Source: Oscillatoria princeps RMCB-10 (lineage in GTDB: Bacteria; Cyanobacteriota; Cyanobacteriia; Cyanobacteriales; Oscillatoriaceae). Taken from it: DNA of 64,000 bases. The DNA lies in NCBI GenBank assembly GCA_019359235.1, contig JAHHHT010000036.1, positions 24,245 to 88,244 on the forward strand, read 5' to 3'. The translations under genes were made by a program, and so were the position numbers. The notes under the pieces were generated by a model. The model ran no database searches, was not told where the DNA came from, and saw nothing but the letters and a program-made list of their open reading frames with translations. Below are positions 48,721 to 64,000 of this stretch, piece after piece (the first letter of the stretch is position 1; each line of letters opens with the position of its first letter).

Positions 48721-50039
48721 GCGCAGCGAAAACCGGCAAAAAGCTGCCTCACCCAAGGCTGATACCAGTTGCGGAAGCTCCCTCGCAGCGCCCTGGGGCG
48801 AGTCGCCCAGCTCCCCCCTTTGAGAACCCGGTGCTGCCGGTCAAAATACGCCTGGGAATAACCGGCATAGGGGTAGAGCTCAAACCCCTCATACCCCTCA
48901 AACCAGCTGGATGTCCACTCCCAAACATTCCCCAAAGCGTCGCACACGCCCCAAAAGCTCGCCCCCGCAGGGAAAGCACCGGCTGGCGTCGTCTGAGCGT
49001 ACAGATTGTCGTGATTGCACCGGCTGGCGTCGGGAGGCTCTTCCCCCCAGGGGTAGGTGCGCCGGCTTCCAGCACTCGCATCCCAGCAGACGGCTTTTTC
49101 CCACTCCGCCTCCGCCGGCAGTCGCTTGCCGGCAAACCGCGCAAAGGCGTCCGCTTCGTACCAGCTCACCCCGCACACGGGATGGCTGTCGAAACGCGAG
49201 TCATCCGACCAATATAAAGGCTGCCTTATCGAATTATTTTGCCGCCACTCCCAGCCCTCGCTTGACCAAAAGCTGGAATTGTGATATCCTCCCGCCGCGA
49301 TAAACTGCCGGTACTGCCCGCAAGTGACGGGATAGCGGTCAATCCAGTAGGTGTCCAAATAGTGCCGGTGAGCCGGTCGCTCGTTGTCGAGGGCGTCGGT
49401 GGAGTCGGAACCCCGCTCAAACTCGCCTGCTGGGATTTCAATCATTTCGCTAAGGGCACCGGGCACTGGGCGTGGGGCATCGGGTGCGAGAATTCTCCCC
49501 TGTTGCGAAGAAATCCCCTGCCAGCCGGCCAGCCTGCTCAGGAAAGTAACCGTTTCGCAGTGCTGGCTTTCGTGCTGGACAATAAAGCTCCAAAGGCGTT
49601 CTTGCTCCTGAACCGGCGCGATTTCCAGATAGTCCAGCACTTTTTCGCGAACCGTGTCCTGATAGTGGCGCAGCTCAGCCAGATTTGGCAGACGCACCCG
49701 TTCCGCTTTGGGCAAGCCATCCGCTGCCAACAGCCTGTGATATTCTGGAAACACCGGCGGATAGCCGGCGCTGCGCTGCAGCAACCAAAGCGCCTCCGTA
49801 TAGGCGATGTGCCCCAAATGCCAGCCGGGGGGGCTGAAGTCGGGATGGGCTTGCTGGCGGAAGGTGGCGTCATCCATGCCTTCAAACAGTTTTAGGGTGC
49901 CCGTGCGGCACTCCTGCAAGGCGTTGCGGATGGCGTCTCTAGAGTTGATAGATTTGAATGTCAAGGTTCTCTCCCACACTGATAATACTCTGTTCTGGGC
50001 AGCGGTTCCAGCTGCCGGCGAACAAAGGTTCAGAAGCAA
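48714..50039 (-). CDS. egtB: ergothioneine sulfoxide synthase (DinB_2 + FGE-sulfatase domains)
   Basis: 441 aa; N-terminal DinB-like [13 protein letters not shown]...HESQHCE iron-binding motifs and a C-terminal FGE fold ([24 protein letters not shown]). The first ~33 codons overlap the egtC 3' end. Confidence 0.9.
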
Positions 50040-50721
50040 TTATGACGGCATTCGGGAAAGTTGGGTCATCGCGCAGCCAGTATAAAGAAGGCACCGCCGC
50101 CCGAGTGGCAAACCTGCTGGCAACCAGCTTGTGTCCGTCACTGAGGAGCAGGTTTGCTGAAACGCATGTTTGATGGTATTTTGCCAATTCTCCCAGGACT
50201 TTCAGTGTTTCTCGCAAGGCGTTTTCTAGGGTGCCGGCGGCTGTTAATTCGTCAGTCAGCAAGGCGAAAATGTGCTCCGAATCGGTAGTGCCCTCAATCC
50301 GCTGGTAGGCTGTCTCGCTGAGACGCTCGCGAATTGGCCGGTAAAGACTAAAGCGGAAGTTTTGAATGAAGCCGTTGTGAGTGCCTAATATCTTGCCGTG
50401 GCGAAAGGGCTGGCAGTTGCTCAAATCTACTGCTTGTCCGGGGGTGGCGCTGCGGACATTAGCGATCGCGCACCCTGACTCAATGTACCGGCTCAGTTGG
50501 GGAAGGTTAATATCGCTCCAGATGGGCAGGGTGTTTTTGTAGGTAAAGGGATCTGTGTCTCGCTGGGGGTGATACCAGCCTATGCCAAAGCCATCGGCGT
50601 TGAGCAAGCCGGCTGTCATTTCGCGGGGCTGGTAGCTTTGGGCGATCAGGGAGTGTTCGGGTTTGTACAGCAGATAGTCTAGCTGGATGGGCGGGCCAAG
50701 GTAGCCAAGTAAGCGGCACAT
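49939..50721 (-). CDS. egtC: class II (Ntn) glutamine amidotransferase, EgtC-like
   Basis: The mature N-terminus [11 protein letters not shown] has Cys2 as nucleophile, and the upstream in-frame 21 codons are unlikely to be translated. [10 protein letters not shown] and HNGFIQNF motifs are present. Confidence 0.8.
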
Positions 50722-50962
50722 GTTTTGGGGGTTTGTTTGTGGGTTTTGTATCCGTGTTATTTGGGATTTTATTTTAACCGCCAAGACGCCTTAGACGCGC
50801 CAGCGGCTTCCCGCTTTCTTAGAGCGCCAAGGAATAAGATGTGGCTGCTTTTGTGGTGCGGTGCTAGTTTTGCTGTCTATTTCTGGAGATAGATGCCAAG
50901 TTTATAACTGTAGCAGTTATCATAGGATTAGTCAAGTAATTTCCGGTTTAGCGGAGGAAAAA

Positions 50963-51301
50963 ATGAGAAGCTTTCTCAGCCAGATTTTCCCCAAGTTTCC
51001 TAGAAGCTCAGCACAGGCGCTGACAGGAGTTGCGCTACTGTGTGTCGCCACCTCGGCAATCCCGCCCCAGCGATCGATCAACGGCTTGTATTATCCGACA
51101 AGCGCCCAATACTTTTTTAGGGAAGGACAGCAGAAGTTTGACAGGGAAATTGAAACGCTCACCCAGCGCCGGCTTTCCTCTCCCGAGCGTCTGCTTGAGA
51201 TTAATGAGGAACTGCGGAAACATAAAGATATATTGCAACTGGAACATCCCGAGCGCCCACCGGGGGGTGCCGGGAAATCTGGCTCGCAGGAATACAGGTG
51301 A
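50963..51301 (+). CDS. small secreted hypothetical protein
   Basis: A Met inside ORF 50861-51301 begins a signal peptide MRSFLSQIFPKFPRSSAQALTGVALLCVATSA, giving about 112 aa. No domain is recognised. Confidence 0.4.
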   Translation: MRSFLSQIFPKFPRSSAQALTGVALLCVATSAIPPQRSINGLYYPTSAQYFFREGQQKFDREIETLTQRRLSSPERLLEINEELRKHKDILQLEHPERPPGGAGKSGSQEYR

Positions 51302-51393
51302 GGTGTCAGGTGGTGGGGTGTTTTTTCGTAACGCCGATTGGGTGCGTTGGGAGCATCCTGAAGTTAGGTGGGTGACGCTTCGCGTCACCCACC

Positions 51394-51775
51394 CTACTTG
51401 AAACTGAAAGCTGCAGCCGCCAGACAGCCCCAGCCAATCATAAATGCGGCTCCCCCCACCGGCGCGAGCGCACCCAGCCACTTGATGCCGGTGAGGCTGA
51501 GAGCGTACAAACTACCCGAAAAAATCGCCACACCGGCAATAAAAGCAACCCCCGCCGCTACGAGGGCCGGCGGTGCCGGCGATGAGCGTGCGAGTTAACA
51601 GCAAAGCTACGGCTAGCAGGGCTAAGGCGTGGTACATTTGATAGCGAGCGCCGGTTTCAAAAATGGACAGCTCGCTAGCAGTGAGCTTTTCCTTCAAAGC
51701 GTGAGAGGCAAAAGCACCGCCAGCCACAGACAGTCCGCCGAGAATTGCCGCAATTGCCAAAAAAATCCGCATCAT
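51394..51775 (-). pseudogene. DUF423 family membrane protein with a frameshift near 51545
   Basis: MMRIFLAIAAILGGLSVAGGAFASHAL...YQMYHALALLAVALLLTRTLIAG is DUF423-like. A shifted frame continues with ALVAAGVAFIAGVAIFSGSLYALSLTGIKWLGALAPVGGAAFMIGWGCLAAAAFSFK*, the expected C-terminus. The annotated frame instead ends in ...GTAGPRSGGGCFYCRCGDFFG. Confidence 0.55.
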
Positions 51776-51837
51776 ATTGCCAATTTCCAAAGAATTGTAG
51801 GGTGCGTTACGCTTCGCGTAACGCACCCCAGAAACTG

Positions 51838-51985
51838 TCTGAAAGGGACAGGCGGGACGCCTGTCCTACGTCTCTATGGCGTAGCACAGGCGTCTCGCCT
51901 GTGCCTGGATGTCCAGCGTCTCTATGGCGTAGCACAGGCGTCTCGCCTGGGAGGTCTGGGGACAGGCGGGACGCCTGTCCTACGC
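51838..51985. repeat. four tandemly arranged GGACAGGCG/GCACAGGCG palindromic units
   Basis: gggacaggcgggacgcctgtcctacg...ggcgtagcacaggcgtctcgcctgtgcc...ggcgtagcacaggcgtctcgcctgg...ggacaggcgggacgcctgtcctacg, between the DUF423 gene and chlM. Confidence 0.8.
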
Positions 51986-51996
51986 CTGGAAAAGCT

Positions 51997-52686
51997 CTAG
52001 CGGCGAGTTGCTTCCAGAAGGCGCGAGAAATAAAAGCGAGTGCTGGTCATCGAATGCCGGCCAATGGAAAAACCATTGCTTTCCAGAATTTTGACAATAT
52101 CGGCTTCGCGATGCTGGTAGGCGCGGGTTGCTTTGCTCGGTCCGGGGAAAAACTCCCCGACTTTCTTGAGCAAACTCAGAGCAAAAGTCTTCGGCGCAAA
52201 ACTGAGAATCACGCGCGACTCCGCCATAGAGCAGAGGTGCCCGATCATCTCAGCAGCCTTATCTTGCGGGTAGTGAATCAGCACGTCCAGGCAAATCACC
52301 GTGTGGTAGCGACCGCTTAAGGTTTCCAAATCCTGCGCCATGAACGTGACATTATTATTAGCGCCCAGAACTCCCCGCGCTCTCTGGTAGGCTTCTGCAA
52401 CCATCTTTTCCGAAATATCGCTCCCGTAGACGATTGACCCCGCTTGAGCCAGGGGAATGCTCAGACTGCCAACACCGCAACCGGCGTCACACACCGACAG
52501 CCCCCGCAAATTGCCATCAGCACTCAGCCAGCTGATGACCGTATCTACCGTCCGCTGGTGTCCGGAACGGATGTCCAGCTGGACTTTATTCACCTCGCCA
52601 TCGCCATAAATCCGCCGCCAGCGCTCAAAGCCGGTGGCGTTGAAATACTCCCTGACGATGCTTTTGTCATCAACTGCGTTCATCAA
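51997..52686 (-). CDS. chlM: magnesium-protoporphyrin IX O-methyltransferase
   Basis: 229 aa; FNATGFERWRRIYG and the SAM-binding VCDAGCGVGSLSIPLA are ChlM/BchM signatures. Confidence 0.9.
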   Translation of the reverse strand: MMNAVDDKSIVREYFNATGFERWRRIYGDGEVNKVQLDIRSGHQRTVDTVISWLSADGNLRGLSVCDAGCGVGSLSIPLAQAGSIVYGSDISEKMVAEAYQRARGVLGANNNVTFMAQDLETLSGRYHTVICLDVLIHYPQDKAAEMIGHLCSMAESRVILSFAPKTFALSLLKKVGEFFPGPSKATRAYQHREADIVKILESNGFSIGRHSMTSTRFYFSRLLEATRR

Positions 52687-52934
52687 TCTGCCTGCGGTTC
52701 AACTGTTTCCAACTTTTCAACTTACCACGTCCAGTCCCCTTTCCCCTCAGACGCCGGTGAAACCCACCCGGCTTCCCCTCTTTGTTGGCGCTCCTTCACG
52801 GGGGCGGTTAGGCTAATAATGCTGCTTGTTGAAGAAAGGAGGCTCTGCCTCCAGAGCAGCGTTCCCAGCCTGAGGCTGGGAACGAGGGGACAACCGGCTT
52901 CCCCTGTTTCTTGGCGTCCTTGGCGTCTTGGCGG

Positions 52935-54116
52935 TTATAATTTCAACCTCTGCCAGCTCAACTCTCCTGTCGCCTCATCCAAATGCCAGCGCAACAAATG
53001 AGCCGGCTGCCCTGCAGCCATTGCCGGCAAGCCAATCGCGCGTCTGGGCGCTTCCGTAGCGAGCGCAATCGCACGCTCCGCCCCACAAATGCCCCACTTT
53101 ACCAGATTTTCGACCCCAGCCAGCAGAGGTAAGGCCGTGCCGGCAAGGGTTCCGTCCTCCAGCCGGCAGGTGCCGCCCCGAACCTCCATCTGCCTGGTGT
53201 CCCAAGGATAAACCCCATCCGGCAATCCCACCGGCGCTAGGGCGTCGCTGACCAGAAACACCCCTTTCTCGTAGAAACTCGCCCGCAGCAGCAAATCCAT
53301 CACGGTCGGGCAAACGTGCTCCCCATCCGCAATCAAGCCGCACCAGACATCCGGATGGACAATTGCCGCACCCAGCAATCCGGGGTGCCGGTGGTGCAGC
53401 GCCGGCATGGCATTAAAAGCGTGAGTCACCATCGACGCCCCCCGCGCAAAGGCTTCCCCGGCTCCCTCAGCTGTGGCCATAGAGTGGCCCAGACTGACCG
53501 TAATTCCCAGAGAGCGCAAATAGGAAATCGCCTCGCCGGTGGGATCTAGTTCCGGCGCTAGGGTGACGACTTTCACAATGCCGGCGTAATCTCCCAAAAC
53601 CCTCTTGACGTTTTCAACGGTAAGCGGTAAAATGTACTCCGCCGGGTGAGCGCCGCGCTTTTCAGGATTGAGAAAAGGCCCTTCCAGGTGGACGCCGAGA
53701 ATCCTGGCTGCCGGTGCGCCGGCACGCTGCGACGCGGCAAAATCAGCCAAGACAGCGAGGGCGCGGTGAATCTTCCCCACAGAAGTGGTGACAAGAGTGG
53801 GCAAAAATCCATCCACACCCTGATTCCAGAGGAACTCGCAGATTGCCGGCAGCCGGTGGCCACTGTCGGGGCCGAGGTCGGGAAAGGCCAAACCCAGCGC
53901 CCCATTAATTTGAACATCCACCCCACCGAGAGAAATCCAGTCCCCCGCAACATCCACAGCCGCAGACGGTGCGGGCTCTTCCGATTGCCCGCCGGCATTG
54001 CCAGCCGGCGCTATCGACCGAATCACCCCAAGGGCATCAATCCGAATGCGGTGCCTGCCTTCCCAACCGGGCACCCGAGCGTTGATAATATCCATCGCAG
54101 CAGCAACTAATGGCAT
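52935..54116 (-). CDS. nagA: N-acetylglucosamine-6-phosphate deacetylase
   Basis: 393 aa; [28 protein letters not shown] and HAFNAM metal-binding motifs of NagA amidohydrolases. Confidence 0.88.
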
Positions 54117-54177
54117 AGTTAATCAAGTCAATTATTCCTTCTTGGCGCACAGGCGCGTCTTGGCGGTTCAAATCCAG

Positions 54178-54696
54178 ATGACTCAACCAGAAATCGGCAT
54201 CATCATGGGCAGCGACTCCGACTTGCCCACCATGCAGGGCGCGATCGCCATCTGCGAAGAATTCCAAATCCCTTGCGAAGTGGCGATCGTCTCCGCCCAC
54301 CGCACGCCCGAACGCATGGTGGAATACGCCCAGCAAGCCCACCTGAGGGGCATCAAAGTAATTATTGCCGGTGCTGGCGGGGCAGCCCACCTGCCCGGGA
54401 TGGTGGCTTCCCTGACGCCCCTGCCTGTGATTGGAGTGCCGGTGCCCAGCCGCCACCTCCAGGGTGTGGATTCGCTCTATTCGATTGTGCAAATGCCCGC
54501 AGGGGTGCCGGTGGCTACCGTGGCCATCGGCAGCGCCACCAATGCTGGACTTTTAGCCGTGCGGATTCTGGCGACTCATAAGCCAGACTTATTAGAGCGC
54601 GTGCGGGTGTATCAGGCTTCTTTAGCTGAATCTGTAATGCAAAAGCAAGCGCGTCTCGACAGTTTGGGGTATAAGGAATACTTATCACAGATGTGA
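54178..54696 (+). CDS. purE: N5-carboxyaminoimidazole ribonucleotide mutase
   Basis: [19 protein letters not shown]...[13 protein letters not shown]...[16 protein letters not shown] is the classical PurE sequence. The ORF-track entry starts 180 nt upstream, inside nagA, and is trimmed here to the conserved Met. Confidence 0.92.
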
Positions 54697-54777
54697 CTCG
54701 CATCCGTACCGGCAGCCGCTGCCGGTCGGGCGTGCGGACGGCAACTTTGTTAAAACAATTGGAAGGCGGCGGCTAAC

Positions 54778-54793
54778 TGTAGTCTGGTATACA
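54778..54793 (+). promoter_or_regulatory. NtcA-type binding motif TGTA-N8-TACA upstream of the first amt gene
   Basis: tgtagtctggtataca matches GTA-N8-TAC with the flanking T/A, about 215 nt upstream of the amt start. The downstream -10 spacing is not canonical. The perfect palindrome ttgttaaaacaa lies at 54748-54759. Confidence 0.4.
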
Positions 54794-55009
54794 GAAAGGT
54801 TATTTTATTCTTGCTGGAATCGTTGTGAATCCTAGCTGGTTGATCTATATGTAGTCTTTTGCGCAATTGCCGGGCATGGGGCATGGGGCATTGGGCATGG
54901 GATTTTCATGCTTTCGTTGCGCCCAATGGGGTGTGGGGGGCTGACTGGCAGTTTCTCAAATAGAACCGTTTGGTTGTGTTTGGAGCGTCGGGGGAAAATC
55001 ATCGAGGTT

Positions 55010-56674
55010 ATGTCTAATCTAACGCAAAAAAAGTTAAAAGGTAGAAACAAGCGGCTGTATCCCAGGTGGGGCGCTGCGACAAACCTGGCGTTCCGAACTG
55101 TCAAGCGGTTGAAAATTGCTATTGGCCGGCTTTCTCCGAGCTGGCAAGCTTGCGTACCCCTGGCGACGCTAATTTTGCTGGCTTGGGGTTGCGCAGCAGT
55201 TGCCCAGATGGAGAGCGCACCTGCTCCGCTACCGGCACCGATTCCGGAAGCTGTGCCGGCACCGGCAGCGGCAGCAGTACCGACGGTGGCAGAGCTAAAA
55301 GTAGCGCTGGACACGTTGTGGGTAACGATTGCCGCCTTCCTGGTGTTCTTTATGAACGCTGGGTTTTGCATGCTGGAAACGGGGTTGTGCCGGCAGAAAA
55401 ACGCCGTCAACGTGCTGTCAAAGAACTTAATTGTGTTCGCTCTCGCCACCGTCGCCTTCTGGGCGATTGGGTTTGGCTTGATGTTCGGAGATGGGAATGA
55501 TTTAATTGGGCTGAATGGGTTTTTTCTGACCGGCGCGGACAACAGCCCCGCCACAGGATCGGCTTACGATGGGGTTTTTGACGCGCTCAACTGGACGGGC
55601 GTGCCGCTGAGCGCCAAGTTTTTGTTCGAGCTGGTTTTTGCCGGCACTGCAGCCACAATTGTGTCTGGGGCGGTGGCGGAGCGAATTAAGTTTGTTAACT
55701 TCTTAATTTTCAGCCTTTTACTGGCGGGGATTTCCTACCCGATCACCGGTCACTGGATCTGGGGCGGTGGCTGGCTGCACAAAGCGGGATTCTACGATTT
55801 TGCCGGCTCAACTGCGGTACACTCAGTCGGTGGCTGGGCGGCTTTGATGGGAGCAGCTTTCCTGGGTCCCCGCTTGGGCAAGTATGAAGACGGGCAGTCT
55901 TTTGCCATGCCCGGGCACAACATGAGTATTGCCACTTTGGGCTGTTTGATTCTGTGGTTTGGCTGGTTTGGCTTCAATCCGGGCTCGGTAATGGCGGCCA
56001 ATCCGGGGGCGATCTCCCACATCGCTCTGACAACTAACATGTCGGGTGCGGTGGGCGGAATTGCTGCTACGATTGCATCTTGGCTGTATCTTGGCAAGCC
56101 GGATCTTTCGATGATTATCAACGGCATTTTGGCGGGGCTGGTTAGCGTCACAGGTTCCTGCGCTTACATTAAGATTGGCAGCGCTTTTGCGATTGGCTTG
56201 ATTGCCGGTATTCTGGTCGTTTTCGCCGTGACTTTCTTTGACCGGCTGAAGATTGATGACCCAGTGGGGGCTACTTCGGTTCACCTCGTCTGCGGCATCT
56301 GGGGCACTCTGGCTGTGGGTCTTTTCAGTGTTGGCCCGGGTGGGTTTCCTTGGATGTTTGACCTGGAGGGCAAGCCAATTGGTCCGCACGGTTTGTTTAT
56401 GGGGGGTGGTTTGGAAACCCTGCTCGCTCAGATTGTTGGCATTGTATCAGTGGGAGGCATGACTGTTCTGCTGAGCACTCTGTTTTGGCGGGGGCTGAAA
56501 GCGACTCTCGGTATCCGAGTTTCTCCACAGGAGGAATTCGCAGGTTTGGATATTGGGGAGCACGGGATGGAAGCTTACAGCGGGTTCGTTAAGGAAGCCG
56601 GTGCGGGCGGTTTTATTCCCGAACGCCCCAGTGGGATAGGGGGTAGCAGTGGGGGAATGGCTAAACGTCCTTAG
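55010..56674 (+). CDS. amt: ammonium transporter (Amt family)
   Basis: Amt signatures DTLWVTIAAFLVFFMNAGFCMLETG, VFAGTAATIVSGAVAERIKF, GGWAALMGAAFLGPRLGKY and an N-terminal signal-like segment. The start was chosen at MSNLTQ within ORF 54908-56674. Confidence 0.9.
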   Translation: MSNLTQKKLKGRNKRLYPRWGAATNLAFRTVKRLKIAIGRLSPSWQACVPLATLILLAWGCAAVAQMESAPAPLPAPIPEAVPAPAAAAVPTVAELKVALDTLWVTIAAFLVFFMNAGFCMLETGLCRQKNAVNVLSKNLIVFALATVAFWAIGFGLMFGDGNDLIGLNGFFLTGADNSPATGSAYDGVFDALNWTGVPLSAKFLFELVFAGTAATIVSGAVAERIKFVNFLIFSLLLAGISYPITGHWIWGGGWLHKAGFYDFAGSTAVHSVGGWAALMGAAFLGPRLGKYEDGQSFAMPGHNMSIATLGCLILWFGWFGFNPGSVMAANPGAISHIALTTNMSGAVGGIAATIASWLYLGKPDLSMIINGILAGLVSVTGSCAYIKIGSAFAIGLIAGILVVFAVTFFDRLKIDDPVGATSVHLVCGIWGTLAVGLFSVGPGGFPWMFDLEGKPIGPHGLFMGGGLETLLAQIVGIVSVGGMTVLLSTLFWRGLKATLGIRVSPQEEFAGLDIGEHGMEAYSGFVKEAGAGGFIPERPSGIGGSSGGMAKRP

Positions 56675-56971
56675 GCGTTGGGAAGGAAAGGGGGAGAGGG
56701 GGAGAGAAAAAATGTTGACGCGAGATTTATACCGGTCTGCTGTAGGGGCGGGTTCACCCGACATATTTGTGGCATTGCCAAGGGTATTAATAAACCCGCC
56801 CCCGCCCCACCCCTAATAAATACCACATAGGGCCGCAATTATATGAGGGGTGAGCGAAAGTTTTTCAGGTGATTTGCAAGGATTTGCAGTGAATTGTTCG
56901 AGCTGCATCTCAAGATGATAAATTGCTGTAATGGCATTCATTGATTTGTTGAAATCAGAGGGCAAAATTAA

Positions 56972-58660
56972 GTGCTGAAGAAAGTTCTGATTGCCGGGAT
57001 AGTATCGCTGTGTCTGCTGAGTGGCCTGCTGATGGGCAGGGTGGTGGCTCAAGACGAGTCCCCTTCCCCAGCTCCTTCTCCTGAACTGAGCGCACCGGCA
57101 GAGGTTGCTCCCGAGGGGGCTGCGCCGGCAGAGGGTGCTGGGCAACCGGCTGCGCCGATAGAGGTTTCTCCGCAACCGGCTGCGCCGATAGAGGTTTCTC
57201 CGCAGCCGGTTGCGCCACCGGCAGAGATGTCTCCGCAACCTGTCGCGCCGGCAACGGGTGTGTCTCCGCAACCGGTGGCTCCCGCACCGGTGTCTCCGGA
57301 ACCTTTCGTTGCACCGGCAACAGGGGAAGATACGGCTGCAGCGGCTGCGGTTTCTGCGATTGACACCGGCGATACCGCCTGGATGCTGATCTCGTCAGCG
57401 CTGGTGCTGCTGATGACTCCGGGGCTGGCATTCTTCTACGGGGGATTGGTGCGATCGCGCAACGTCCTCAACACGATGATGATGAGTTTGATTTTGATGG
57501 CGGTTGTCGGCGTCATCTGGGTGCTGTGGGGCTACAGTCTGGCTTTTGCGCCGGTTTCAGTAACGCCGCCTGCGGCTCCGGGAGAACCGGCGACCTTCGA
57601 TGCCAATCCGATTATTGGCAGCTTGAACTGGATGTTTTTGAACGGCGTCGCTTTTGACCAGCCCGATCCGGTGGGCTACGCCCCAACGATTCCCCACGAG
57701 GTGTTTATGGTTTACCAGATGATGTTCGCCATCATCACACCGGCGCTGATCTCTGGGGCGATCGTGGAGCGGATGAGCTTTAAGGCGTATTTCTGGTTCA
57801 TCCTGATTTGGGCGACGTTTATCTACGCCCCCCTGGCGCACTGGGTTTGGGGCAAGGGCTGGATTCAGACGATGGGAGCGCTGGACTTTGCCGGCGGCAC
57901 GGTTGTCCACATCAGTGCTGGGATTTCGGCTGTGGTAGCGGCTTGGATGATTGGCCCGCGCAAGACGTTCATGGTGCAGCCGGCGGCTCCCCACAATGTG
58001 CCCTATGTGTTGCTGGGGATTGGCGTGCTCTGGTTTGGCTGGATGGGCTTCAATGCCGGCAGCGCTTTGGGCGCGGGCTCTGTGGCGGCGGTGGCGTTTG
58101 TGGCCACAACGGTGTCTCCAGCGGCAGGGGGTCTGACTTGGGTGATTTTGGAGTGGGTGCTCCGGGGCAAACCAACAGCGATTGGCATTGCTAGCGGCTT
58201 CCTCGCCGGTTTGGGAAGCGTTACCGCCGCAGCGGGATTCGTGACTCCCATCGGGGCGCTCCTGATCGGATCGATCAGCTCTGTGTGCTGTTTCTTTGCG
58301 GTGAGCTGGCGAGCCAAACTGCAGTTTGACGATTCGCTGGACACCTTCCCCGTCCACGGCGTCGGCGGTACGGTGGGGATGCTTCTCACCGGCATCTTTG
58401 CCACGAAAGAGGTCAACGCGTTGGGGAATAATGGTTTGCTGTTCGGCAACTCGTCGCTATTGCGATCTCAAATCGTCGCTGTGGTTGCTACCTACATTTT
58501 TGCAGGGGCGGGCACGTTTATTATCCTGAAAGCCCTCGGAGCGATTATGGACCTGCGTGTGAAGCCGGAATCGGAAGACCAGGGTTTGGATATCAACGAG
58601 CACGGCGAAGAGGGTTACGGCGAGGAGTTCGCTTCTGGGCTGAGTTTTCCTGGGAAGTAG
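56972..58660 (+). CDS. amt: ammonium transporter with signal peptide and Pro/Ala-rich repeat linker
   Basis: 562 aa; GTG start; [62 protein letters not shown]. The linker has [10 protein letters not shown] repeats. Confidence 0.93.
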
Positions 58661-58736
58661 GGGTAGCTTGCCGGTTCGAGGGAGGGAGAGTCCCGGCACC
58701 CCAACTCCCTCCCCGCTTTTCGGCTGCCGTTTACAA

Positions 58737-58913
58737 GCAACTCTCGGCATCCGCGTTTCGCAACAGGAGGAATTTGCCGGTTTGGATATTGGCGAACACG
58801 GGATGGAAGCTTACAGCGGGTTCGCTCTGTTGCCGGTGCAGGCGGTTTTATTCCCGAGCGCCCCAGTGGGATGGGGGCGGGCAGTGGGGGAATGCCTAAA
58901 CGTCCTTAGACGT
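58737..58913 (+). pseudogene. duplicated 3'-end fragment of the first amt gene
   Basis: 58737-58825 reads ctcggcatccgcgtttcgcaacaggaggaatttgccggtttggatattggcgaacacgggatggaagcttacagcgggttcg, which encodes ...[27 protein letters not shown]. It matches 56497-56590 of amt1, then diverges with an indel. Confidence 0.6.
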
Positions 58914-59298
58914 TCGCTTCGCAGAGGGGAAGAGAAAAAATGCTCGCCCGATATCTGCCGGTGTGCTGCCTGGGTTCCCCCAACCTATTGGTGCAGCACC
59001 GGCAAGGGGATTAATAAACCCGCCCGCGTGCCGGCAGCATGGGGCCAAGGTGAGTGGGGGCCGGCTCACCGGACATATTTGTCGCATAGCGAAGGAGATT
59101 AACAAACCCGCCGCCGCCCCCGCATGAGCGCAAACCGCCTGGAAGAGTATCACCTATTGCTGCAATTTTATCAGCGTTGAGCGAAAGTTTTTAACGGGAT
59201 TGGCGAGGATTTGCAGTGAATTGTTCAAGCTTCATCTCAAGATGATAAATTTTTCTAATGGCATTCATTGATAGTTTCAAATCAGAGGGCAACAAGAC

Positions 59299-60951
59299 GT
59301 GCTGAAGAAAGTTCTGATTGCCGCGATTGTATCGCTGTGTCTGCTGAGTGGCCTGCTGATGGGCAGGGTGGTGGCTCAAGACGAGTCCCCTTCCGCAACT
59401 CCCTCTCCTGAACTGAGCGCACCGGCAGAGGTGTCTCCGCAACCGGCTGCACCGGCAGAGGTTTCTCCGCAACCGGCTGCGCCGATAGAGGTTTCTCCGC
59501 AACCGGCTGCACCGGCAGCAGTTTCTCCGCAACCCGTCGCGCCGGCGGGTGCGTCTCCTCAACCTGTTGCGCCGGCGGCGGGTGCGTCTGGGCAACCCGT
59601 GACTCCCGCACCGATGTCTCCGGAACCTTTCGTTGCACCGGCAACAGGGGAAGACACGGCGGCGGCTGCTGCAGCTTCTGCGATTAAAGACGGCGATACC
59701 GCCTGGATGCTGATCTCGTCAGCGCTGGTGCTGCTGATGACTCCGGGGCTGGCATTCTTCTACGGGGGATTGGTGCGATCGCGCAACGTCCTCAACACGA
59801 TGATGATGAGTTTGATTTTGATGGCGGTTGTCGGCGTCGTCTGGGTGCTGTGGGGCTACAGTCTGGCTTTTTCGCAGGCGTCTGATATCAATGTCAATCG
59901 GATTATTGGCAGCTTGGACTGGATATTTTTGAACGGCGTCGCTTTTGACAAGCCCGATCCGGTGGGCTACGCCCCAACGATTCCCCACCAGCTGTTTATG
60001 GTTTACCAGATGATGTTCGCCATGATCACACCGGCGCTGATCTCTGGGGCGATCGTGGAGCGCGTCAGTTTTAAGGCTTATTTTTGGTTCATCATCATTT
60101 GGGCGACGTTTATCTACGCCCCCCTGGCGCACTGGGTTTGGGGCAAGGGCTGGATTGGGGCGATGGGAGCCTTGGACTTTGCCGGTGGCACTGTTGTCCA
60201 CATCAGTTCTGGGGTTTCGGCAGTGGTAGCGGCTTGGATGATTGGCCCGCGCAAGACCTTCATGGTGCAGCCGGCGGCTCCCCACAATGTCCCCTATGTG
60301 TTGCTGGGGATTGGCATGCTCTGGTTTGGCTGGATGGGGTTCAATGCCGGCAGCGCTTTGGGCGCGGGATCTCTGGCGACTGTGGCGTTTGTGGCCACAA
60401 CGGTTTCTGCAGCAGCAGGAGGTCTAACCTGGGTGATTTTGGAGTGGGTGCTTAGAAGCAAACCAACGGCGATTGGCATTGCTAGCGGCTTCCTGGCCGG
60501 TTTGGTGGGCGTTACCCCCGCAGCGGGATTCGTGACTCCCATCGCGGCGATTCTGATTGGGTCAATTACCTCGGCGTGCTGTTTCTTTGGGGTTAGCTTG
60601 CGAGCCAAACTGCAGTTTGACGATTCGCTGGACACCTTCCCCGTCCACGGTCTCGGCGGTACGGTGGGGGCGATTCTCACCGGCATCTTTGCCACGAAAG
60701 AGGTCAACGCGGCGGGGAATAATGGCTTGCTGTTCGGCAACCCGTCGCTATTGGGAGTTCAAATCGTCGGTGTGGTTGTCACCTACATTTTTGCGGCGGT
60801 GGGCACTTTTATCATCCTGAAAGCGCTGGGAGCGATTATGGAGCTGCGGGTGAAGCCGGAATCGGAAGACCAAGGGTTGGATATCAACGAGCACGGCGAA
60901 GAGGGTTACGGCGAGGAGTTCGCTTCAGGGCTGAGTTTTCCTGGCAAGTAA
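59299..60951 (+). CDS. amt: ammonium transporter, near-identical tandem paralog of the preceding gene
   Basis: 550 aa; collinear with 56972-58660 at roughly 90% identity by eye. It has a longer PQPAAPAEVS repeat linker, and its upstream 110 nt (59190-59298) match 56860-56971. Confidence 0.93.
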   Translation: MLKKVLIAAIVSLCLLSGLLMGRVVAQDESPSATPSPELSAPAEVSPQPAAPAEVSPQPAAPIEVSPQPAAPAAVSPQPVAPAGASPQPVAPAAGASGQPVTPAPMSPEPFVAPATGEDTAAAAAASAIKDGDTAWMLISSALVLLMTPGLAFFYGGLVRSRNVLNTMMMSLILMAVVGVVWVLWGYSLAFSQASDINVNRIIGSLDWIFLNGVAFDKPDPVGYAPTIPHQLFMVYQMMFAMITPALISGAIVERVSFKAYFWFIIIWATFIYAPLAHWVWGKGWIGAMGALDFAGGTVVHISSGVSAVVAAWMIGPRKTFMVQPAAPHNVPYVLLGIGMLWFGWMGFNAGSALGAGSLATVAFVATTVSAAAGGLTWVILEWVLRSKPTAIGIASGFLAGLVGVTPAAGFVTPIAAILIGSITSACCFFGVSLRAKLQFDDSLDTFPVHGLGGTVGAILTGIFATKEVNAAGNNGLLFGNPSLLGVQIVGVVVTYIFAAVGTFIILKALGAIMELRVKPESEDQGLDINEHGEEGYGEEFASGLSFPGK

Positions 60952-61071
60952 AGGAAGCTTGCCGGTTTTAACCTCGACGGCGCAGGCACCGGCGTCGAGC
61001 CTGCGCACACCTGCCGGTTTTCAGCCGGATGCTCCGCAGCGGAGATTGCCGGCGAGCGTTCGGAATTAAGA

Positions 61072-61917
61072 TTGGATTCAAACACTGTTGAATTTGATCT
61101 CGTGCTGACTCGCTTTAAGACTGTTCCGGCTTGGGCGTTAGTTGCCCTGGCTTCCAACGTGTTACTGATGCTGGCAGTTTTCGTGGTGCTGCAGCGGGAG
61201 GAAAGGTTGCTGGGGGCTGCCCGAGCCGGTGCCACGGCGGCGCAGCCAACACCGGCACCCACCTTAGGGCCACGCCTCCAGTGGTCTTACGACCAGTGGG
61301 TGGCTCAGCTGAAGCGGGAGGCGGATGCTGCAGCCGAGAAGAAACCCCAGCGGTTGAGCGTCCTCGCTGGGGATTCCATCAGTCTGTGGTTTCCGCCGGA
61401 ACTGTTGCCCCCGGGGCGCGTTTGGCTGAACCAGGGGATTTCTGGAGAAACGTCCGAGGGGCTGCTCAAGCGGCTGACGCTGTTTGACCGCACTGATCCG
61501 GAGACGGTTTTTGTGATGATTGGGATTAATGACTTGATCCGGGGGGTGGGGGATGATACGATTCTCAATAACCAGCGGCTGATTATTCAGGATTTGCGCT
61601 CGGTTCATCCCTACACGCAGATCGTAGTCCAGTCGATTTTGCCCCACAGTGCCAGTAAGGCAACCTGGGAGGGGCGAGAGCGTTTGCTGGCAATTCCTAA
61701 CGAGCGCATTCGCCGGCTGAACAAGGAGCTGGCTGCGATTGCGGCGGAACAAGGTGTGGAGTATTTGGATTTGTATCCTTTGTTTGCCGACGCCCAAGGC
61801 AATCTGCCGATGTCATTCAGTACGGATGGCTTGCATTTGAATTCTCAAGGCTATTTGGTCTGGCGTTCGGCGCTGCTGCTTTTCAGCCAGCTGAGGCTGG
61901 AGGAGCCGGCTTTTTAG
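61072..61917 (+). CDS. SGNH/GDSL-family hydrolase, membrane anchored
   Basis: 281 aa; N-terminal anchor, block I VLAGDSISLW, block III GINDL, block V DGLHLNSQGY. Confidence 0.8.
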   Translation: MDSNTVEFDLVLTRFKTVPAWALVALASNVLLMLAVFVVLQREERLLGAARAGATAAQPTPAPTLGPRLQWSYDQWVAQLKREADAAAEKKPQRLSVLAGDSISLWFPPELLPPGRVWLNQGISGETSEGLLKRLTLFDRTDPETVFVMIGINDLIRGVGDDTILNNQRLIIQDLRSVHPYTQIVVQSILPHSASKATWEGRERLLAIPNERIRRLNKELAAIAAEQGVEYLDLYPLFADAQGNLPMSFSTDGLHLNSQGYLVWRSALLLFSQLRLEEPAF

Positions 61918-61929
61918 GGGTTGACAAAT

Positions 61930-62910
61930 TGTAATTTCTATGCTAATAAGACTAGGCAAATTAGGTTAGTTTCCAGGCGATAAGCTAGTTTCCGGGCGAT
62001 TGGAAATCGCGGCTATACAAACGAAGTCCGCCTGCGCGGACTTAAGAGCTAAAAGTAGGGTGCGTTCCGCGTGCTTCTGACTGCTACTTCTAGGGAATAC
62101 TGTGAACGCGGAACGCACCACCGGCACTCGTTGGGGCGGGTTTATTCAGATGTTGAGTTGTGTGGCTTTGAGTTCGGGCGAATCCGCCCCCACCGGCATT
62201 ATATCACGGAGGTGCCGGTGCGTGCGAGATGCCGGCTGCGCGCGGTGCCGGGCGGGTTTTTTGGAGGTTGTCTGTGGGTGGCACAGGTGTTAGGGCGAAG
62301 CATGAGCGTTAGCGAAGCGGCTGCGTCAGCAGCTATATAATCCTTCCTTGGGTGGCAAAAATAGTCGCGCTCATGCTTCGCCCCTAAGCTGGAATTCCTC
62401 TAGGGGCGAAGCATGAGAGTGAGGAGCTTTCCTGGGCATTCCTGGTGCCGGGCGGGTTTATTCAGATGTTGAGTTGTGTGGCTTTGAGTTCGGGCAAATC
62501 CGCCCCCACCGGCATTATATCACGGAGGTGCCGGTGCGTGCTTTGATGCCGGGTTTCGTGGGGTGGGGGCGGGTTTATTCAGATGTTGAGTTGTGGGGCA
62601 AATATTTCGGGCAAATCCTCCCCTACAGGCATTCTATCACAGAGGTGCCGGTGCATACAAGACACCGGCACTCGCGGGGCGCTAAAAGTAGGGTGCGTTC
62701 CGCGTGCTTCTGACTTCTACTTCTAGGGAATACTCTGAAGGCGGAACGCACCCCCGGCACTCGTAGGGGCGGGTTTATTCAGATGTTGCGTTGTGTGGCA
62801 AAGATTTCGGGCGAACCCGCCCCTACAGGCATTCGTGGGGGCGCTGGGAACACGGTGCGTTCCGCAGAAGCGCGACTTCTACTTCTGCGGAATCCTCTCA
62901 AGGCGGAACG
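61930..62910. repeat. repeat island: four copies of a ~95-bp composite MITE-like unit (GGGCGGGTTTATTCAGATGTTGAGTTGTGTGGC...GAATCCGCCCC + CACCGGCA..TGCCGGTG), TAGGGTGCGTTCCGC hairpin pairs and GGGGCGAAGCATGAGCG palindromes
   Basis: Units start at about 62136, 62451, 62567 and 62768. Inverted gtagggtgcgttccgc / gcggaacgcaccctac pairs lie at 62055-62125, 62690-62760 and 62850-62920. cgaagcatgagcg palindromes lie at 62290-62430. The interval has no credible ORF. Confidence 0.75.
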
Positions 62911-62914
62911 CACC

Positions 62915-64000
62915 CTACTCTTCGAGCAAGCGCTTCAGTTCCTCATCCGTGAAGGGATTATTCCCCGCTTTCAGGGCGTCAACCCAGCGCTGCCTTTGCG
63001 ATTTTTCCTTCTTATAAAAATCCTTACTCCCAGAAGGTAGATTGTCAATCCAAGCGATGTATGCCTGAAAGTCCTCAATCGCGCCTTTTGGGTTGCCGGT
63101 GAGCGCCCGGGCAATGCCGCGACTGTCGCGATACCTTTCATTATAAGGAGCGAGGGCTACGGCTTTCTCGCAGGCAAACATCACGTCTTTGGCGTGCCGG
63201 TGCAAACTGCCGTACCTGCAGAGAGTATTCCAAGACTCCGCATAAATCTCAAAGTTTGGGTCGAGCTTTTGGGCTTGTGCGTAAGCGGCGATGGCTTCCC
63301 TCACCTTGCCTTCCTTGACAAGCTCTTCTCCCTTTTTCACTATAACGGTTGCCGGCTCAACGTTAGGGTCGAGTTGCAATGCCTTCTGAAATTCCGCCAC
63401 CGCAGCTTCAATATTGCCCTCTTCGGCAAGCTGTTCGCCCTTCTTAATTCGTTCGGAAGCTTCTGCTAATTGCTTGGCTTTGGTTTCTGGATTGAGGGGT
63501 AAGCTGGGATTCCACTTTAAGGCGGTGCGGAAAGTAGCAACTGCTCCATCAACATTGCCTCCTCTCGCTTCCTCCTCCCCTTCCTTAACCAGAAATGGCG
63601 CGGCGTCCCGCCGATTGGATTGGGTTTGGCACACTTCTAGTTTTTCCAAGTCTTTGGGATGGGTGATAAGGTAATCGTTGAGCCAGTTGCAACCCCTCAC
63701 CAGCAGTTCGTCTAAGCTGTAAACCCGCCACACCCGGGCTGTCATATCAGAGGAGGCGGTGACGATGCGCTTTCCGTCGGGGCTGAAACTGGCGCTGTAG
63801 ACAGGACTCTGATGCCCTTTTAGCTCGTACAGCTGCTTGCCGGTGCTGTCCCACACCCGGGCTGTATTGTCAAAGGAGGCGGTGACGATGCGCTTTCCGT
63901 CGGGGCTGAAACTGGCGCTGTTGACAGCATCCTGATGCCCTTTTAGCTCGTACAGCTGCTTGCCGGTGCTGTCCCACACCCGGGCTGTTCTGTCAGAGGA
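62915..64000 (-). CDS. WD40-repeat protein with C-terminal TPR-like domain, partial (N-terminus beyond window end)
   Basis: Repeated ...DSTGKQLYELKGHQDAVNSASFSPDGKRIVTASFDNTARVW units are present. The reading frame stays open to position 64000. The C-terminal half has TPR-like AxxxFxxALxxNP repeats. Confidence 0.8.
   Translation of the reverse strand, partial: SSDRTARVWDSTGKQLYELKGHQDAVNSASFSPDGKRIVTASFDNTARVWDSTGKQLYELKGHQSPVYSASFSPDGKRIVTASSDMTARVWRVYSLDELLVRGCNWLNDYLITHPKDLEKLEVCQTQSNRRDAAPFLVKEGEEEARGGNVDGAVATFRTALKWNPSLPLNPETKAKQLAEASERIKKGEQLAEEGNIEAAVAEFQKALQLDPNVEPATVIVKKGEELVKEGKVREAIAAYAQAQKLDPNFEIYAESWNTLCRYGSLHRHAKDVMFACEKAVALAPYNERYRDSRGIARALTGNPKGAIEDFQAYIAWIDNLPSGSKDFYKKEKSQRQRWVDALKAGNNPFTDEELKRLLEE

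What the first reader, a model, noticed from the sequence alone, without database searches (positions are those of the whole stretch)
54700..60960. Ammonium-transporter array built by segmental duplication, with a duplicated promoter and a stranded gene fragment
Three amt genes lie in tandem. The second and third are near-identical, including 110 nt of upstream sequence (56860-56971 vs 59190-59298). Between them lies a roughly 180-nt copy of the 3' end of the first gene (58737-58913) that retains ...[27 protein letters not shown] but has lost frame. This records an unequal-crossover or duplication event that copied [amt1 3' end - spacer - amt2] to generate amt3. Each unit is followed by the same ATAAACCCGCCCC-type hairpin repeats, which may have served as recombination substrates.
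Basis: seen in the sequence. Interest (0 to 1): 0.5.

Follow-up and report, generated by a model that had tools for sequence, protein, structure and literature searches.

The report
Tandem-duplicated ammonium transporter with gene relic
A filamentous cyanobacterium gained a third ammonium-transporter gene through an ordinary tandem duplication of about 2.7 kb, which left a decaying scrap of the neighbouring gene between the two copies; this is a clean textbook case, not a new kind of system.

Summary
Three same-strand Amt genes (55010-56674, 56972-58660, 59299-60951) lie between purE and a GDSL lipase gene. A 175-nt frameshifted relic of the first gene's 3' end (58735-58909) sits between genes 2 and 3.

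Genes 2 and 3 are 91% identical in DNA and 87% in protein, so they are similar but not near-identical. The 117-nt upstream block is 85% identical.

The closest genome, Oscillatoria sp. PCC 10802, and all more distant relatives carry only two amt genes at this locus. At least five other assemblies carry the three-gene array, one of them 100% identical to the window, so this is not an assembly artefact.

Relatives L084-L087 keep a longer junction. The original unit was about 2.7 kb, joined at a GGCTT microhomology. The window's 58734/58735 boundary is a later deletion scar of about 0.4 kb. The relic has been eroded differently in each lineage.

The GGGGCGGGTT...AACCCGCCCC hairpin repeats lie inside the unit, not at its ends, so they did not mediate the duplication.

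Both copies are under purifying selection (dN/dS about 0.3), and the upstream copy has diverged faster in protein sequence. A conserved NtcA-type box lies only upstream of the first gene.

This is ordinary evolutionary genomics and of low interest.

The parts
54779..54792 (.). NtcA-type box GTAGTCTGGTATAC, about 218 nt upstream of the first amt gene's ATG. It is the likely nitrogen-regulated promoter of the array.
   Evidence: It is one of only 3 perfect GTAN8TAC matches in the 64 kb window. A GTAN8TAC-AG(A/T) box sits at the equivalent place upstream of the orthologous gene in L001, L002, L004, L005, L006, L008, L009, L044 and L081. NtcA ChIP places a GTATTAACTAATAC box upstream of Anabaena amt4 (PMC3898017). 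Binding here is inferred; the -10 hexamer 22 nt downstream (TGGAAT) is imperfect.
55010..56674 (+). First ammonium-transporter gene (554 aa). It was not duplicated as a whole; its 3' part is the parent of the relic.
   Evidence: PF00909, E = 1.5e-121. The start at 55010 is supported by an in-frame stop in PCC 10802 upstream of MSNVTKKK and by conservation of MS(N/K)LT..KK in relatives. Orthologs lie next to purE in most relatives.
56200..56498 (+). Part of the first gene that was inside the original duplicated unit. Its copy has since been deleted from the window's relic.
   Evidence: In L084-L087 the relic begins at the equivalent of 56200, joined to gene 2's downstream tail at a GGCTT microhomology. 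In L086 the relic runs in frame for at least 376 nt.
56499..56674 (+). 3' end of the first gene; the parent sequence of the surviving relic.
   Evidence: 88% identical to 58735-58909.
56675..56971 (+). Spacer A. It contains one palindromic dispersed repeat (56742-56808) and the conserved upstream block (56855-56971) with a TGATAAATT extended -10-like motif at 56916-56924.
   Evidence: Alignments. Compared with spacer B and with PCC 10802, spacer A has lost about 86 nt carrying the first hairpin element. Promoter function of the block is inferred only.
56972..58660 (+). amt gene 2 (562 aa): the upstream duplicate and the faster-evolving protein.
   Evidence: PF00909, E = 5.6e-120. Pore residues equivalent to E. 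coli AmtB F107, W148, D160, H168, W212, F215, S219 and H318 are conserved. There are 13 fixed nonsynonymous changes on its stem against 1 for gene 3.
57047..57286 (+). 30-nt tandem repeats encoding a Pro-rich decapeptide array ([10 protein letters not shown]) in the periplasmic N-terminal extension of gene 2. The counterpart in gene 3 is at 59374-59643.
   Evidence: the repeat finder family D1; protein alignment. Repeat number and sequence differ between paralogs and strains.
58661..58723 (+). Remaining start of gene 2's downstream tail, including a GGGAGGGAG...CTCCCTCCC hairpin.
   Evidence: Homologous to the PCC 10802 tail. The fold is not better than shuffled sequence (z = -0.5).
58724..58734 (+). 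11-nt filler (CTGCCGTTTAC) at the secondary deletion scar.
   Evidence: Identical in the window, L081 and L082. Absent from the L084-L087 junction type, which keeps the roughly 0.4 kb missing here.
58735..58909 (+). Relic (pseudogene fragment) of the first gene's last 58 codons. It is frameshifted after ...SGF, and the former stop codon is at 58907-58909.
   Evidence: In 11 of the 20 sites where it differs from the functional 3' end and the state can be assigned, the relic keeps the PCC 10802 state and the functional copy carries the change. It is cut to 76 nt in L081/L082.
58910..59298 (+). Spacer B. It carries two palindromic dispersed repeats (58996-59028 and 59054-59120) and the duplicated upstream block (59182-59298).
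   Evidence: It is collinear with the single spacer of PCC 10802, so it is the more ancestral version. The upstream block is 84.6% identical to 56855-56971.
59299..60951 (+). amt gene 3 (550 aa): the downstream duplicate. It retains mostly ancestral residues and has a window-specific 11-codon deletion in the first periplasmic loop.
   Evidence: PF00909, E = 5.3e-126; alignments. The loop deletion is absent from L081, L082 and L084 gene 3.
60952..61020 (+). Tail of copy B up to the inferred original right breakpoint (...CTGCCGGTTT|TCA).
   Evidence: The right breakpoint was mapped on PCC 10802 at position 11861 (CTGCCGGCTT|TCACC) from the L084-L087 junction. The window's tail has its own internal deletion or replacement at 60968-61003.

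Best explanation
The ancestral arrangement in this Oscillatoria/Kamptonema lineage was purE - amtFirst - amtX - GDSL lipase.

**The event.** A single tandem duplication of about 2.7 kb took place. The unit ran from inside amtFirst (window equivalent 56200) to about 185 nt past the amtX stop (window equivalent about 61020). The two ends were joined by illegitimate recombination at a 5-nt microhomology (GGCTT). The result was amtFirst - spacer - amt2 - tail | 475-nt 3' relic of amtFirst - spacer - amt3.

**What the new gene inherited.** The whole intergenic spacer was copied, so the new gene has the same upstream context as the old one: the hairpin elements, a conserved roughly 117-nt block with an extended -10-like motif, the Shine-Dalgarno sequence and the GTG start.

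**What happened afterwards.**
- The functionless relic was eroded by different deletions in different lineages. In the window lineage, one deletion of about 0.4 kb removed the rest of the tail and the first 300 nt of the relic. This left the 175-nt frameshifted piece and the scar at 58724-58734.
- Both transporter copies stayed intact and under purifying selection. The upstream copy (amt2) accumulated most of the fixed amino-acid changes.

**Expression.** It is most likely nitrogen-regulated through the conserved NtcA box upstream of the first gene, possibly supplemented by internal promoters in the duplicated block.

**Shown:** the repeat structure, the relic, the two-copy state in outgroups, the shared orthologous copies, the junction series and the selection statistics.

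**Inferred:** the recombination mechanism, the order of the deletions and everything about expression.
For: **Repeat structure.** Shown.

**Gene identity.** All three genes are Amt family members with conserved pore residues.

**Copy number in relatives.** PCC 10802 (about 90% DNA identity) and all more distant relatives have two amt genes in this context. Of 82 loci surveyed, only L081 and L082 carried two copies of the gene-2 type.

**Other assemblies with three genes.**
- L083 is 100% identical to the window over 14 kb on an 8.63-Mb contig.
- L081, L082 and L084 also carry the array.
- L085-L087 are short contigs that carry the same junction type as L084.

**Single event.** Gene-2 orthologs form a clade with 100% bootstrap support. 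The diagnostic residues of each paralog are shared across the window, L081, L082 and L084.

**Junction series.** A predicted ancestral inter-copy segment, built from PCC 10802 (tail + amtFirst 3' part + spacer), explains every observed variant as a simple deletion derivative. The window-type scar is identical in the window, L081 and L082.

**Age and selection.** Between the paralogs dS is 0.16-0.20 and dN/dS about 0.3. Between window and PCC 10802 orthologs dS is 0.16-0.27. Fixed changes are 13 N: 9 S on the amt2 stem and 1 N: 6 S on the amt3 stem.

**Regulation.** The NtcA box is conserved upstream of the first gene.
Against: - The position of PCC 10802 relative to the duplication is unresolved. 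Polarised shared-derived sites number 6 (gene 3 + PCC), 4 (gene 2 + PCC) and 2 (gene 2 + gene 3), and NJ rooting is unstable because outgroup synonymous sites are saturated. Whether the duplication happened after the split, or before it with later loss in PCC 10802, cannot be decided.
- The 'single event plus secondary deletion' reading rests on parsimony and orthology of the copies. L086 and L087 are short contigs, so the full-length relic is seen only up to a contig end.
- The N:S asymmetry is suggestive, not significant (Fisher p = 0.08).
- Gene conversion between copies occurs in some lineages: the L082 5' parts are identical, and L082 and L084 paralogs are about 91.5% identical. This blurs dating.
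- There is no expression data. No canonical NtcA box or sigma-70 match lies upstream of genes 2 and 3.
Confidence: 0.85

Rival explanations
1. The duplication is older than the split from PCC 10802. That strain secondarily lost one copy by homologous recombination between the repeated units, for example between amtFirst's 3' end and the relic or between amt2 and amt3. Such a loss restores a two-gene locus without leaving a trace. This changes only the timing, not the nature of the event.
For: - Paralog dS (0.16-0.20) is as large as window-PCC 10802 ortholog dS (0.16-0.27).
- At fixed paralog differences, PCC 10802 matches gene 3 at 22 sites and gene 2 at 7.
- At two amino-acid sites (FAI/FAM and HGV/HGL), gene 3 and PCC 10802 share a state that differs from all three outgroups.
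- The PCC 10802 spacer resembles spacer B.
Against: - The 22:7 excess is mostly nonsynonymous change specific to amt2. The synonymous counts (9 vs 6) fit a star tree.
- The sequence just downstream of the PCC 10802 stop matches copy A's tail, not copy B's.
- Polarised synapomorphies are few and conflicting (6/4/2).
- Spacer A's difference from PCC 10802 is explained by a later deletion in spacer A.
Confidence: 0.3
2. Two independent tandem duplications with different breakpoints occurred. One, in the window/L081/L082 lineage, had its left breakpoint at 56499. The other, in the L084-L087 lineage, had its left breakpoint at 56200. On this reading 58734/58735 is an original junction.
For: The two junction types share no junction sequence. 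An 11-nt filler at the window junction would also fit an original illegitimate join.
Against: - Gene 2 and gene 3 of L084 carry the same paralog-diagnostic residues as the window's genes. Each is closer to its window counterpart (94-95% aa) than to its own neighbour (about 91.5%).
- The gene-2 clade has 100% bootstrap support.
- The window type is derivable from the L086 type by a single deletion.
Confidence: 0.08
3. The repeat is an assembly artefact: a mis-join or mis-resolved repeat in a metagenome-assembled genome.
For: The window comes from a MAG, Oscillatoria princeps RMCB-10, on an 88-kb contig.
Against: - The copies differ at about 10% of positions and by several indels, so they cannot be a duplicated read pile.
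- A separate 8.63-Mb contig is 100% identical across 50000-64000.
- The same array occurs in four more divergent assemblies.
Confidence: 0.01
4. The three genes are an ancient paralog cluster like Anabaena amt4-amt1-amtB, kept similar by concerted evolution, rather than a recent duplication.
For: Three-gene amt clusters exist in Nostocales. Gene conversion between the copies is seen in L082.
Against: - Non-coding relic, spacer and tail sequences are duplicated too and still align.
- Relatives beyond this narrow clade have two genes in the same context.
- One other locus (L039) has three amt genes, but there the first-gene type is doubled.
Confidence: 0.03

Closest known systems
amt4-amt1-amtB gene cluster of Anabaena sp. 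PCC 7120 (Paz-Yepes et al. 2008, J Bacteriol 190:6534, cited in PMC3898017 and bioRxiv 10.1101/2020.07.17.206227)
   Same: Three same-strand Amt-family genes in a row in a filamentous cyanobacterium. A canonical GTAN8TAC NtcA site lies upstream of the first gene: Anabaena amt4 has GTATTAACTAATAC-AGAA, and the window has GTAGTCTGGTATAC-AGAA at 54779.
   Different: The second and third genes here are young duplicates (dS about 0.18, 87% aa identity) with a relic of the first gene between them, and close relatives have only two genes. From recollection rather than any test here, the Anabaena genes are older paralogs.
Tandem segmental duplication by illegitimate, microhomology-mediated recombination in bacterial chromosomes (general mechanism; established knowledge)
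   Same: Head-to-tail units, a junction at a 5-nt microhomology (GGCTT) preserved in L084-L087, a truncated gene copy at the junction, and later decay of the non-functional part by deletions.
   Different: Nothing essential. The only unusual point is that several natural lineages preserve different stages of relic erosion.
AmtB/Amt-1 ammonia channels with solved structures (A. fulgidus Amt-1 2b2f; E. coli AmtB 1xqe/9cs5)
   Same: Full-length homology (E = 6e-98 and 4e-89). The Phe gate, twin His, Trp148, Asp160 and Ser219 equivalents are conserved in all three genes.
   Different: Genes 2 and 3 carry a signal peptide followed by a Pro/Ala/Ser-rich N-terminal extension of about 105 residues built from decapeptide repeats. 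This is absent from the crystallised proteins.
Short palindromic dispersed repeats and MITE-like elements of cyanobacterial intergenic regions
   Same: Elements of about 65-90 nt with terminal inverted repeats GGGGCGGGTT...AACCCGCCCC, scattered in intergenic DNA. There are 13 core matches in the window against 0.5 expected, and a cluster at 62134-62858.
   Different: The family was not identified. There is no Rfam match, and the folds are only marginally better than shuffled sequence (z = -1.6 to -2.0). They do not coincide with the duplication breakpoints.

Membership tests
Amt/MEP/Rh ammonium transporter family (PF00909) | Full-length match to the family HMM above the gathering score | tested here: met
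   All three genes score 401-421 bits against a cutoff of 23.2, covering profile positions 1-2 to 399 of 399. The relic ORF gives no match.
Amt/MEP/Rh ammonium transporter family (PF00909) | Conserved pore and recruitment residues (E. coli AmtB F107, W148, D160, H168, W212, F215, S219, H318) | tested here: met
   The residue-level alignment of gene 2 to E. coli AmtB (9cs5) shows all of them conserved. The same motifs are present in gene 3 and in the first gene's translation. Assigning these residues to their roles rests on established knowledge.
Amt/MEP/Rh ammonium transporter family (PF00909) | Ammonium or methylammonium transport activity | not testable with these tools
   Requires uptake assays or complementation.
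Tandem segmental duplication | Two contiguous head-to-tail units with similarity extending beyond coding regions | tested here: met
   The similarity covers the relic, spacer, upstream block, CDS and start of the tail: 56499-58676 vs 58735-60967, 89% over aligned bases.
Tandem segmental duplication | Single-copy state in outgroups with the same flanking genes | tested here: met
   PCC 10802, Phormidium R1S1, Argonema and others have purE-amt-amt-lipase. Microcoleus and Tychonema have purE-amt-lipase-amt.
Tandem segmental duplication | Identifiable novel junction joining the end of the unit to its start | tested here: met
   The junction is preserved in L084-L087: the tail (...TGCCGGCTT) is joined, through a short filler GAGCT, to amtFirst sequence (GATTGCCGG...). 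In the window it is replaced by a secondary deletion scar.
   The hairpin elements are at 56742-56808, 58996-59028 and 59054-59120, all inside the units. The boundaries are at 56200 or 56499 and at 58734 or about 61020. Both elements pre-exist in the PCC 10802 spacer.
NtcA-activated (class II) cyanobacterial promoter | GTAN8TAC box upstream of the gene, conserved in orthologous loci | tested here: met
   Met for the first gene at 54779-54792, conserved in 9 related loci. Not met for genes 2 and 3 in the window clade, although L004 has GTACTTTTTGATAC upstream of its gene-2 ortholog.
NtcA-activated (class II) cyanobacterial promoter | -10 hexamer TAN3T about 22 nt downstream of the box | tested here: inconclusive
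   The hexamer at a 22-nt spacing is TGGAAT (54815-54820), with G instead of A at position 2.
NtcA-activated (class II) cyanobacterial promoter | NtcA binding and induction on nitrogen step-down | not testable with these tools
   Needs ChIP or EMSA, plus 5'-RACE or RNA-seq.

The most novel reading that the evidence does not exclude
The duplication is being exploited rather than merely tolerated. The upstream copy (amt2) carries 13 fixed amino-acid replacements against 1 in amt3. Several lie next to pore-lining residues: FAI vs FAM beside the Phe gate, HISAGIS vs HISSGVS after the first pore His, and HGVGGTVGM vs HGLGGTVGA after the second. It may therefore have acquired altered transport kinetics or regulation, for example a change in affinity or capacity. 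That would give this terrestrial Oscillatoria a three-tier ammonium uptake system that arose within the last 0.2 synonymous substitutions per site.
Probability: 0.25. Interest if true: 0.35.

Novelty: new member of a known kind. Interest (0 to 1): 0.2.

Why it matters
The locus gives a well-resolved natural example of how a bacterial transporter family grows. One microhomology-mediated tandem duplication copied a gene together with its complete upstream region. Sister lineages then preserve different stages in the decay of the leftover gene fragment, and the two copies diverge asymmetrically in protein sequence. This is useful as an annotation note: the relic should be flagged as a pseudogene fragment, and the long N-terminal forms of genes 2 and 3 are probably the real ones. 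It could also start a comparison of transport properties between very young Amt paralogs. It does not reveal a new mechanism or system.

Tried and rejected
- **Rfam scan.** A permissive-threshold scan of 52000-64000 gave only two sub-threshold chance hits: CRISPR-DR28 at 62020 (E = 0.2) and COG2908 RNA at 59067 (E = 0.85). There is no known RNA element in the spacers or upstream blocks.
- **Promoter and terminator scan.** Counts were no higher than in shuffled sequence, and there was no plus-strand promoter hit upstream of genes 2 and 3.
- **Folding of the hairpin elements and post-gene tails.** None is convincingly more stable than shuffled sequence (z = -0.5 to -2.0), so no terminator claim is made.
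- **NtcA boxes upstream of genes 2 and 3.** One-mismatch hits exist but are not shared between the copies or with relatives.
- **Rooted NJ trees to place PCC 10802.** These were unstable because outgroup synonymous sites are saturated. The hypothesis that the PCC 10802 gene is a 5'-amt2/3'-amt3 chimera was considered because unique differences cluster spatially. It was dropped because the sequence downstream of its stop matches copy A and the polarised sites conflict.
- **The 158-nt stretch 57390-57547.** It is almost identical between genes 2 and 3. Gene conversion was considered, but PCC 10802 and even distant outgroups are also unusually conserved there, so constraint is the simpler reading.
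- **Exact-protein look-up of gene 3.** It found nothing. The public records use shorter start calls, and gene 2's long form is on record.
- **PF27998.** It is listed for some homologs' N-termini in precomputed data but is not in the local Pfam copy.
- **Paz-Yepes et al. 2008.** The paper is not held in the library, so it is cited only through papers that cite it.

Full report
**Source and context.** Gene 2's exact protein is on record on an 88,244-nt NCBI contig. The same contig carries proteins named 'MAG: ammonium transporter [Oscillatoria princeps RMCB-10]': MBW4497126 and MBW4497128, both called with shorter starts. That MAG comes from a survey of terrestrial cyanobacterial cultures (PMC8354539). 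The window's 50000-64000 stretch is 100% identical to a JGI 8.63-Mb contig (L083). The local gene order is a nagA-like amidohydrolase (minus strand), purE, three amt genes, a GDSL lipase, a field of dispersed repeats, and a WD40/nSTAND gene.

**Checking the observation.** Self-blastn of 54001-62000 gives two strong off-diagonal matches:
- 56742-58676 vs 59054-60967, 87.5% over 1950 nt, E = 0.
- 56499-56804 vs 58735-59028, 79% over 308 nt, E = 6e-71.

The repeat finder and global alignments give the same picture. All three long ORFs are full-length Amt family members (PF00909, 401-421 bits).

The segment 58735-58909 is 88% identical to the last 176 nt of the first gene. It still reads [29 protein letters not shown], then loses the frame through a 1-nt deletion, and keeps a recognisable former stop codon at 58907-58909.

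Two details are overstated:
- Genes 2 and 3 are 91% identical in DNA over aligned bases and 87% in protein, with an 11-codon loop deletion in gene 3. The upstream block is 84.6% identical.
- The hairpin repeats do not follow every unit. They occur only in the spacers upstream of genes 2 and 3.

**Two or three copies ancestrally?** A scan of one genome per species with gene 2's protein returned 80 loci.
- The closest, Oscillatoria sp. PCC 10802 (L001; named Kamptonema formosum in protein records), is about 88-90% identical in DNA across the region. Its gene order is purE-amt-amt-lipase, with both window copies mapping to its single second gene.
- A tblastn census of all loci found purE-amtFirst-amt2type-lipase, or the variant with the lipase between the two amt genes, in dozens of Oscillatoriales. 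A doubled gene-2 type appeared only in two metagenome contigs fetched separately, L081 and L082.
- Cluster look-ups then gave L083 (identical to the window), L084 (a 68.9-kb contig at about 92%) and three short contigs, L085-L087.

Two copies are therefore ancestral, and three copies mark a narrow clade around O. princeps. This also rules out a collapsed or misjoined assembly.

**One event, and the real unit.** In the window, L081 and L082, the sequence between gene 2's stop and the relic is identical apart from a few substitutions...CTCCCTCCCCGC(TTTT/AAG)CGG-CTGCCGTTTAC-AAGCAACTC.... L081 and L082 carry an additional 187-nt deletion that cuts the relic to 76 nt.

L084-L087 look different:
- Gene 2 is followed by a longer tail that aligns with the PCC 10802 tail down to ...CTGCCGGCTT.
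- After a short filler (GAGCT), first-gene sequence follows, starting at the equivalent of window 56200.
- The join sits at a GGCTT microhomology: tail TGCCGGCTT|TCACC, gene ATTGGCTT|GATTGCC.
- In L086 this relic runs in frame for at least 376 nt, to the end of the contig.
- In L084 and L085 it stops after about 110 nt at a roughly 640-nt deletion.

I built the predicted ancestral inter-copy segment from PCC 10802: 187 nt of tail, 475 nt of first-gene 3' end, and the spacer. Every observed variant aligns to it as a deletion derivative.

L084's gene 2 and gene 3 carry the same paralog-diagnostic residues as the window's genes. Each is closer to its window counterpart (94-95% aa) than to its own neighbour. 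The gene-2 copies form a clade with 100% bootstrap support.

The most economical history is one duplication of a unit of about 2.7 kb (PCC 10802 coordinates 9137-11861, 2725 nt), followed by independent erosion of the relic. The window's 58734/58735 boundary is then a secondary scar. About 0.4 kb was lost, with a possible GCGG microhomology and an 11-nt filler. It is not the original junction.

**Role of the hairpin repeats.** The elements have terminal inverted repeats GGGGCGGGTT...AACCCGCCCC and are dispersed through the window: 13 core matches against 0.5 expected, with a cluster at 62134-62858. Both spacer copies are already present in the single spacer of PCC 10802. Spacer B is collinear with it, whereas spacer A has since lost about 86 nt that carried one element. 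The elements lie inside the unit, far from both the original and the secondary breakpoints. They were passengers, not substrates.

**Age and selection.**

| Comparison (Amt core unless stated) | dS |
|---|---|
| Gene 2 vs gene 3 (paralogs) | 0.16-0.20 (dN/dS about 0.3) |
| Either paralog vs PCC 10802 | 0.15-0.19 |
| Flanking orthologs, window vs PCC 10802 | 0.16-0.27 |
| Flanking orthologs, window vs L081 | 0.10-0.16 |

The duplication is thus about as old as the split from PCC 10802. The three-way relationship is effectively a star. Site patterns in the core are 49 unique to copy A, 50 unique to copy B and 34 unique to PCC 10802, and polarised shared-derived sites conflict at 6/4/2. I cannot tell whether PCC 10802 never had the third gene or lost it.

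Fixed differences between the paralog clades are asymmetric: 13 nonsynonymous and 9 synonymous on the gene-2 stem, against 1 and 6 on the gene-3 stem (Fisher p = 0.08). Of 14 nucleotide changes derived only in gene 2, 12 are at first or second codon positions.

All pore and recruitment residues known from E. coli AmtB are intact in all three genes. Some gene-2 replacements sit next to them. Both copies therefore look functional. The upstream one has evolved faster in protein sequence, which fits relaxed constraint or specialisation but proves neither.

Gene conversion between the copies is evident in L082, where the 5' parts are identical and the overall identity is 91.7%.

**Regulation.** A perfect GTAN8TAC box (GTAGTCTGGTATAC, 54779-54792) lies upstream of the first gene and is one of only three in the window. 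A box followed by AGAA or AGTT occurs at the corresponding place in nine related loci. It resembles the ChIP-supported NtcA site upstream of Anabaena amt4 (PMC3898017). The -10 element at the canonical spacing is imperfect.

Upstream of genes 2 and 3 there is no conserved NtcA box in the window clade, although the more distant L004 has one. The 117-nt block conserved among all copies and PCC 10802 contains TGATAAATT, an extended -10-like motif. Whether it works as a promoter is unknown. The phrase 'duplicated promoter' should therefore read 'duplicated conserved upstream block'.

**Comparison with what is known, and verdict.** Three tandem amt genes are known from Anabaena PCC 7120 (amt4-amt1-amtB; Paz-Yepes 2008, cited). 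Microhomology-mediated tandem duplications with truncated junction genes are standard bacterial genome dynamics (established knowledge). I found no paper describing this particular locus.

The finding is correct in substance and has been refined on three points: a larger original unit, a secondary scar, and no role for the hairpin repeats. It is an ordinary event, a new member of a known kind, and of low interest.

Noticed in passing
56972-57340 and 59299-59664 (30-nt repeats at 57047-57286 and 59374-59643): Genes 2 and 3 encode a conserved signal peptide ([28 protein letters not shown]) followed by a Pro/Ala/Ser-rich extension of about 105 residues made of decapeptide repeats ([10 protein letters not shown]). 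The repeat content differs between paralogs and strains, giving proteins of 540-564 aa. NCBI records start these genes at an internal Met (433 and 422 aa). Conservation of the GTG start, the signal peptide and in-frame indels across relatives argues for the long form.
   Followed up: partly
54872-54902: A G-rich heptamer tandem repeat (GGGCATG x4) lies in the presumed 5' leader of the first amt gene. It resembles the cyanobacterial STRR class of heptamer repeats, a resemblance recalled from memory. It was read directly from the sequence shown.
   Followed up: no
62048-62915: The intergenic field downstream of the lipase gene is packed with dispersed repeats. There are four copies of a 92-nt element carrying the same GGGGCGGGTTTATT core in the opposite orientation, plus 153-nt and 42-nt repeat families. 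A weak, sub-threshold CRISPR-DR28 hit lies just upstream at 62020-62043. PCC 10802 has an even larger cluster at the same place.
   Followed up: no
63728-64000 (continues beyond the window end): 123-nt tandem repeats encode 41-residue WD40 units of a very large nSTAND/WD40 protein, 1909 aa in the identical contig L083. Repeat copies are 85-93% identical.
   Followed up: no
57390-57547 vs 59714-59871: A 158-nt stretch encoding TM1 differs at 1 of 156 compared positions between genes 2 and 3, with no third-position differences against about 12% elsewhere. It is nearly as conserved in PCC 10802, and third-position divergence is also reduced in distant outgroups. This suggests nucleotide-level constraint rather than gene conversion.
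   Followed up: partly
L082:253-4086 and L084:7716-11514: In the related contig L082 the 5' parts of genes 2 and 3, including the whole Pro-rich region, are identical, and the paralogs are 91.7% identical overall against 87.5% in the window. L084 paralogs are 91.5% identical in protein. This indicates ongoing gene conversion between the copies in some lineages.
   Followed up: partly
56499-56598 vs 58735-58834: The non-functional relic keeps the PCC 10802 state, for example VSQQEE, at 11 of the 20 sites where it differs from the functional 3' end of the first gene and the state can be assigned. The functional copy has changed, mostly at synonymous sites, with one Gln-to-Pro change. PCC 10802 itself has only one unique difference in this stretch.
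   Followed up: partly
L039:6662-11302: One unrelated metagenome bin (L039) has three amt genes in tandem of a different make-up: two genes of the first-gene type followed by one of the gene-2 type. Amt arrays have therefore expanded independently more than once.
   Followed up: no
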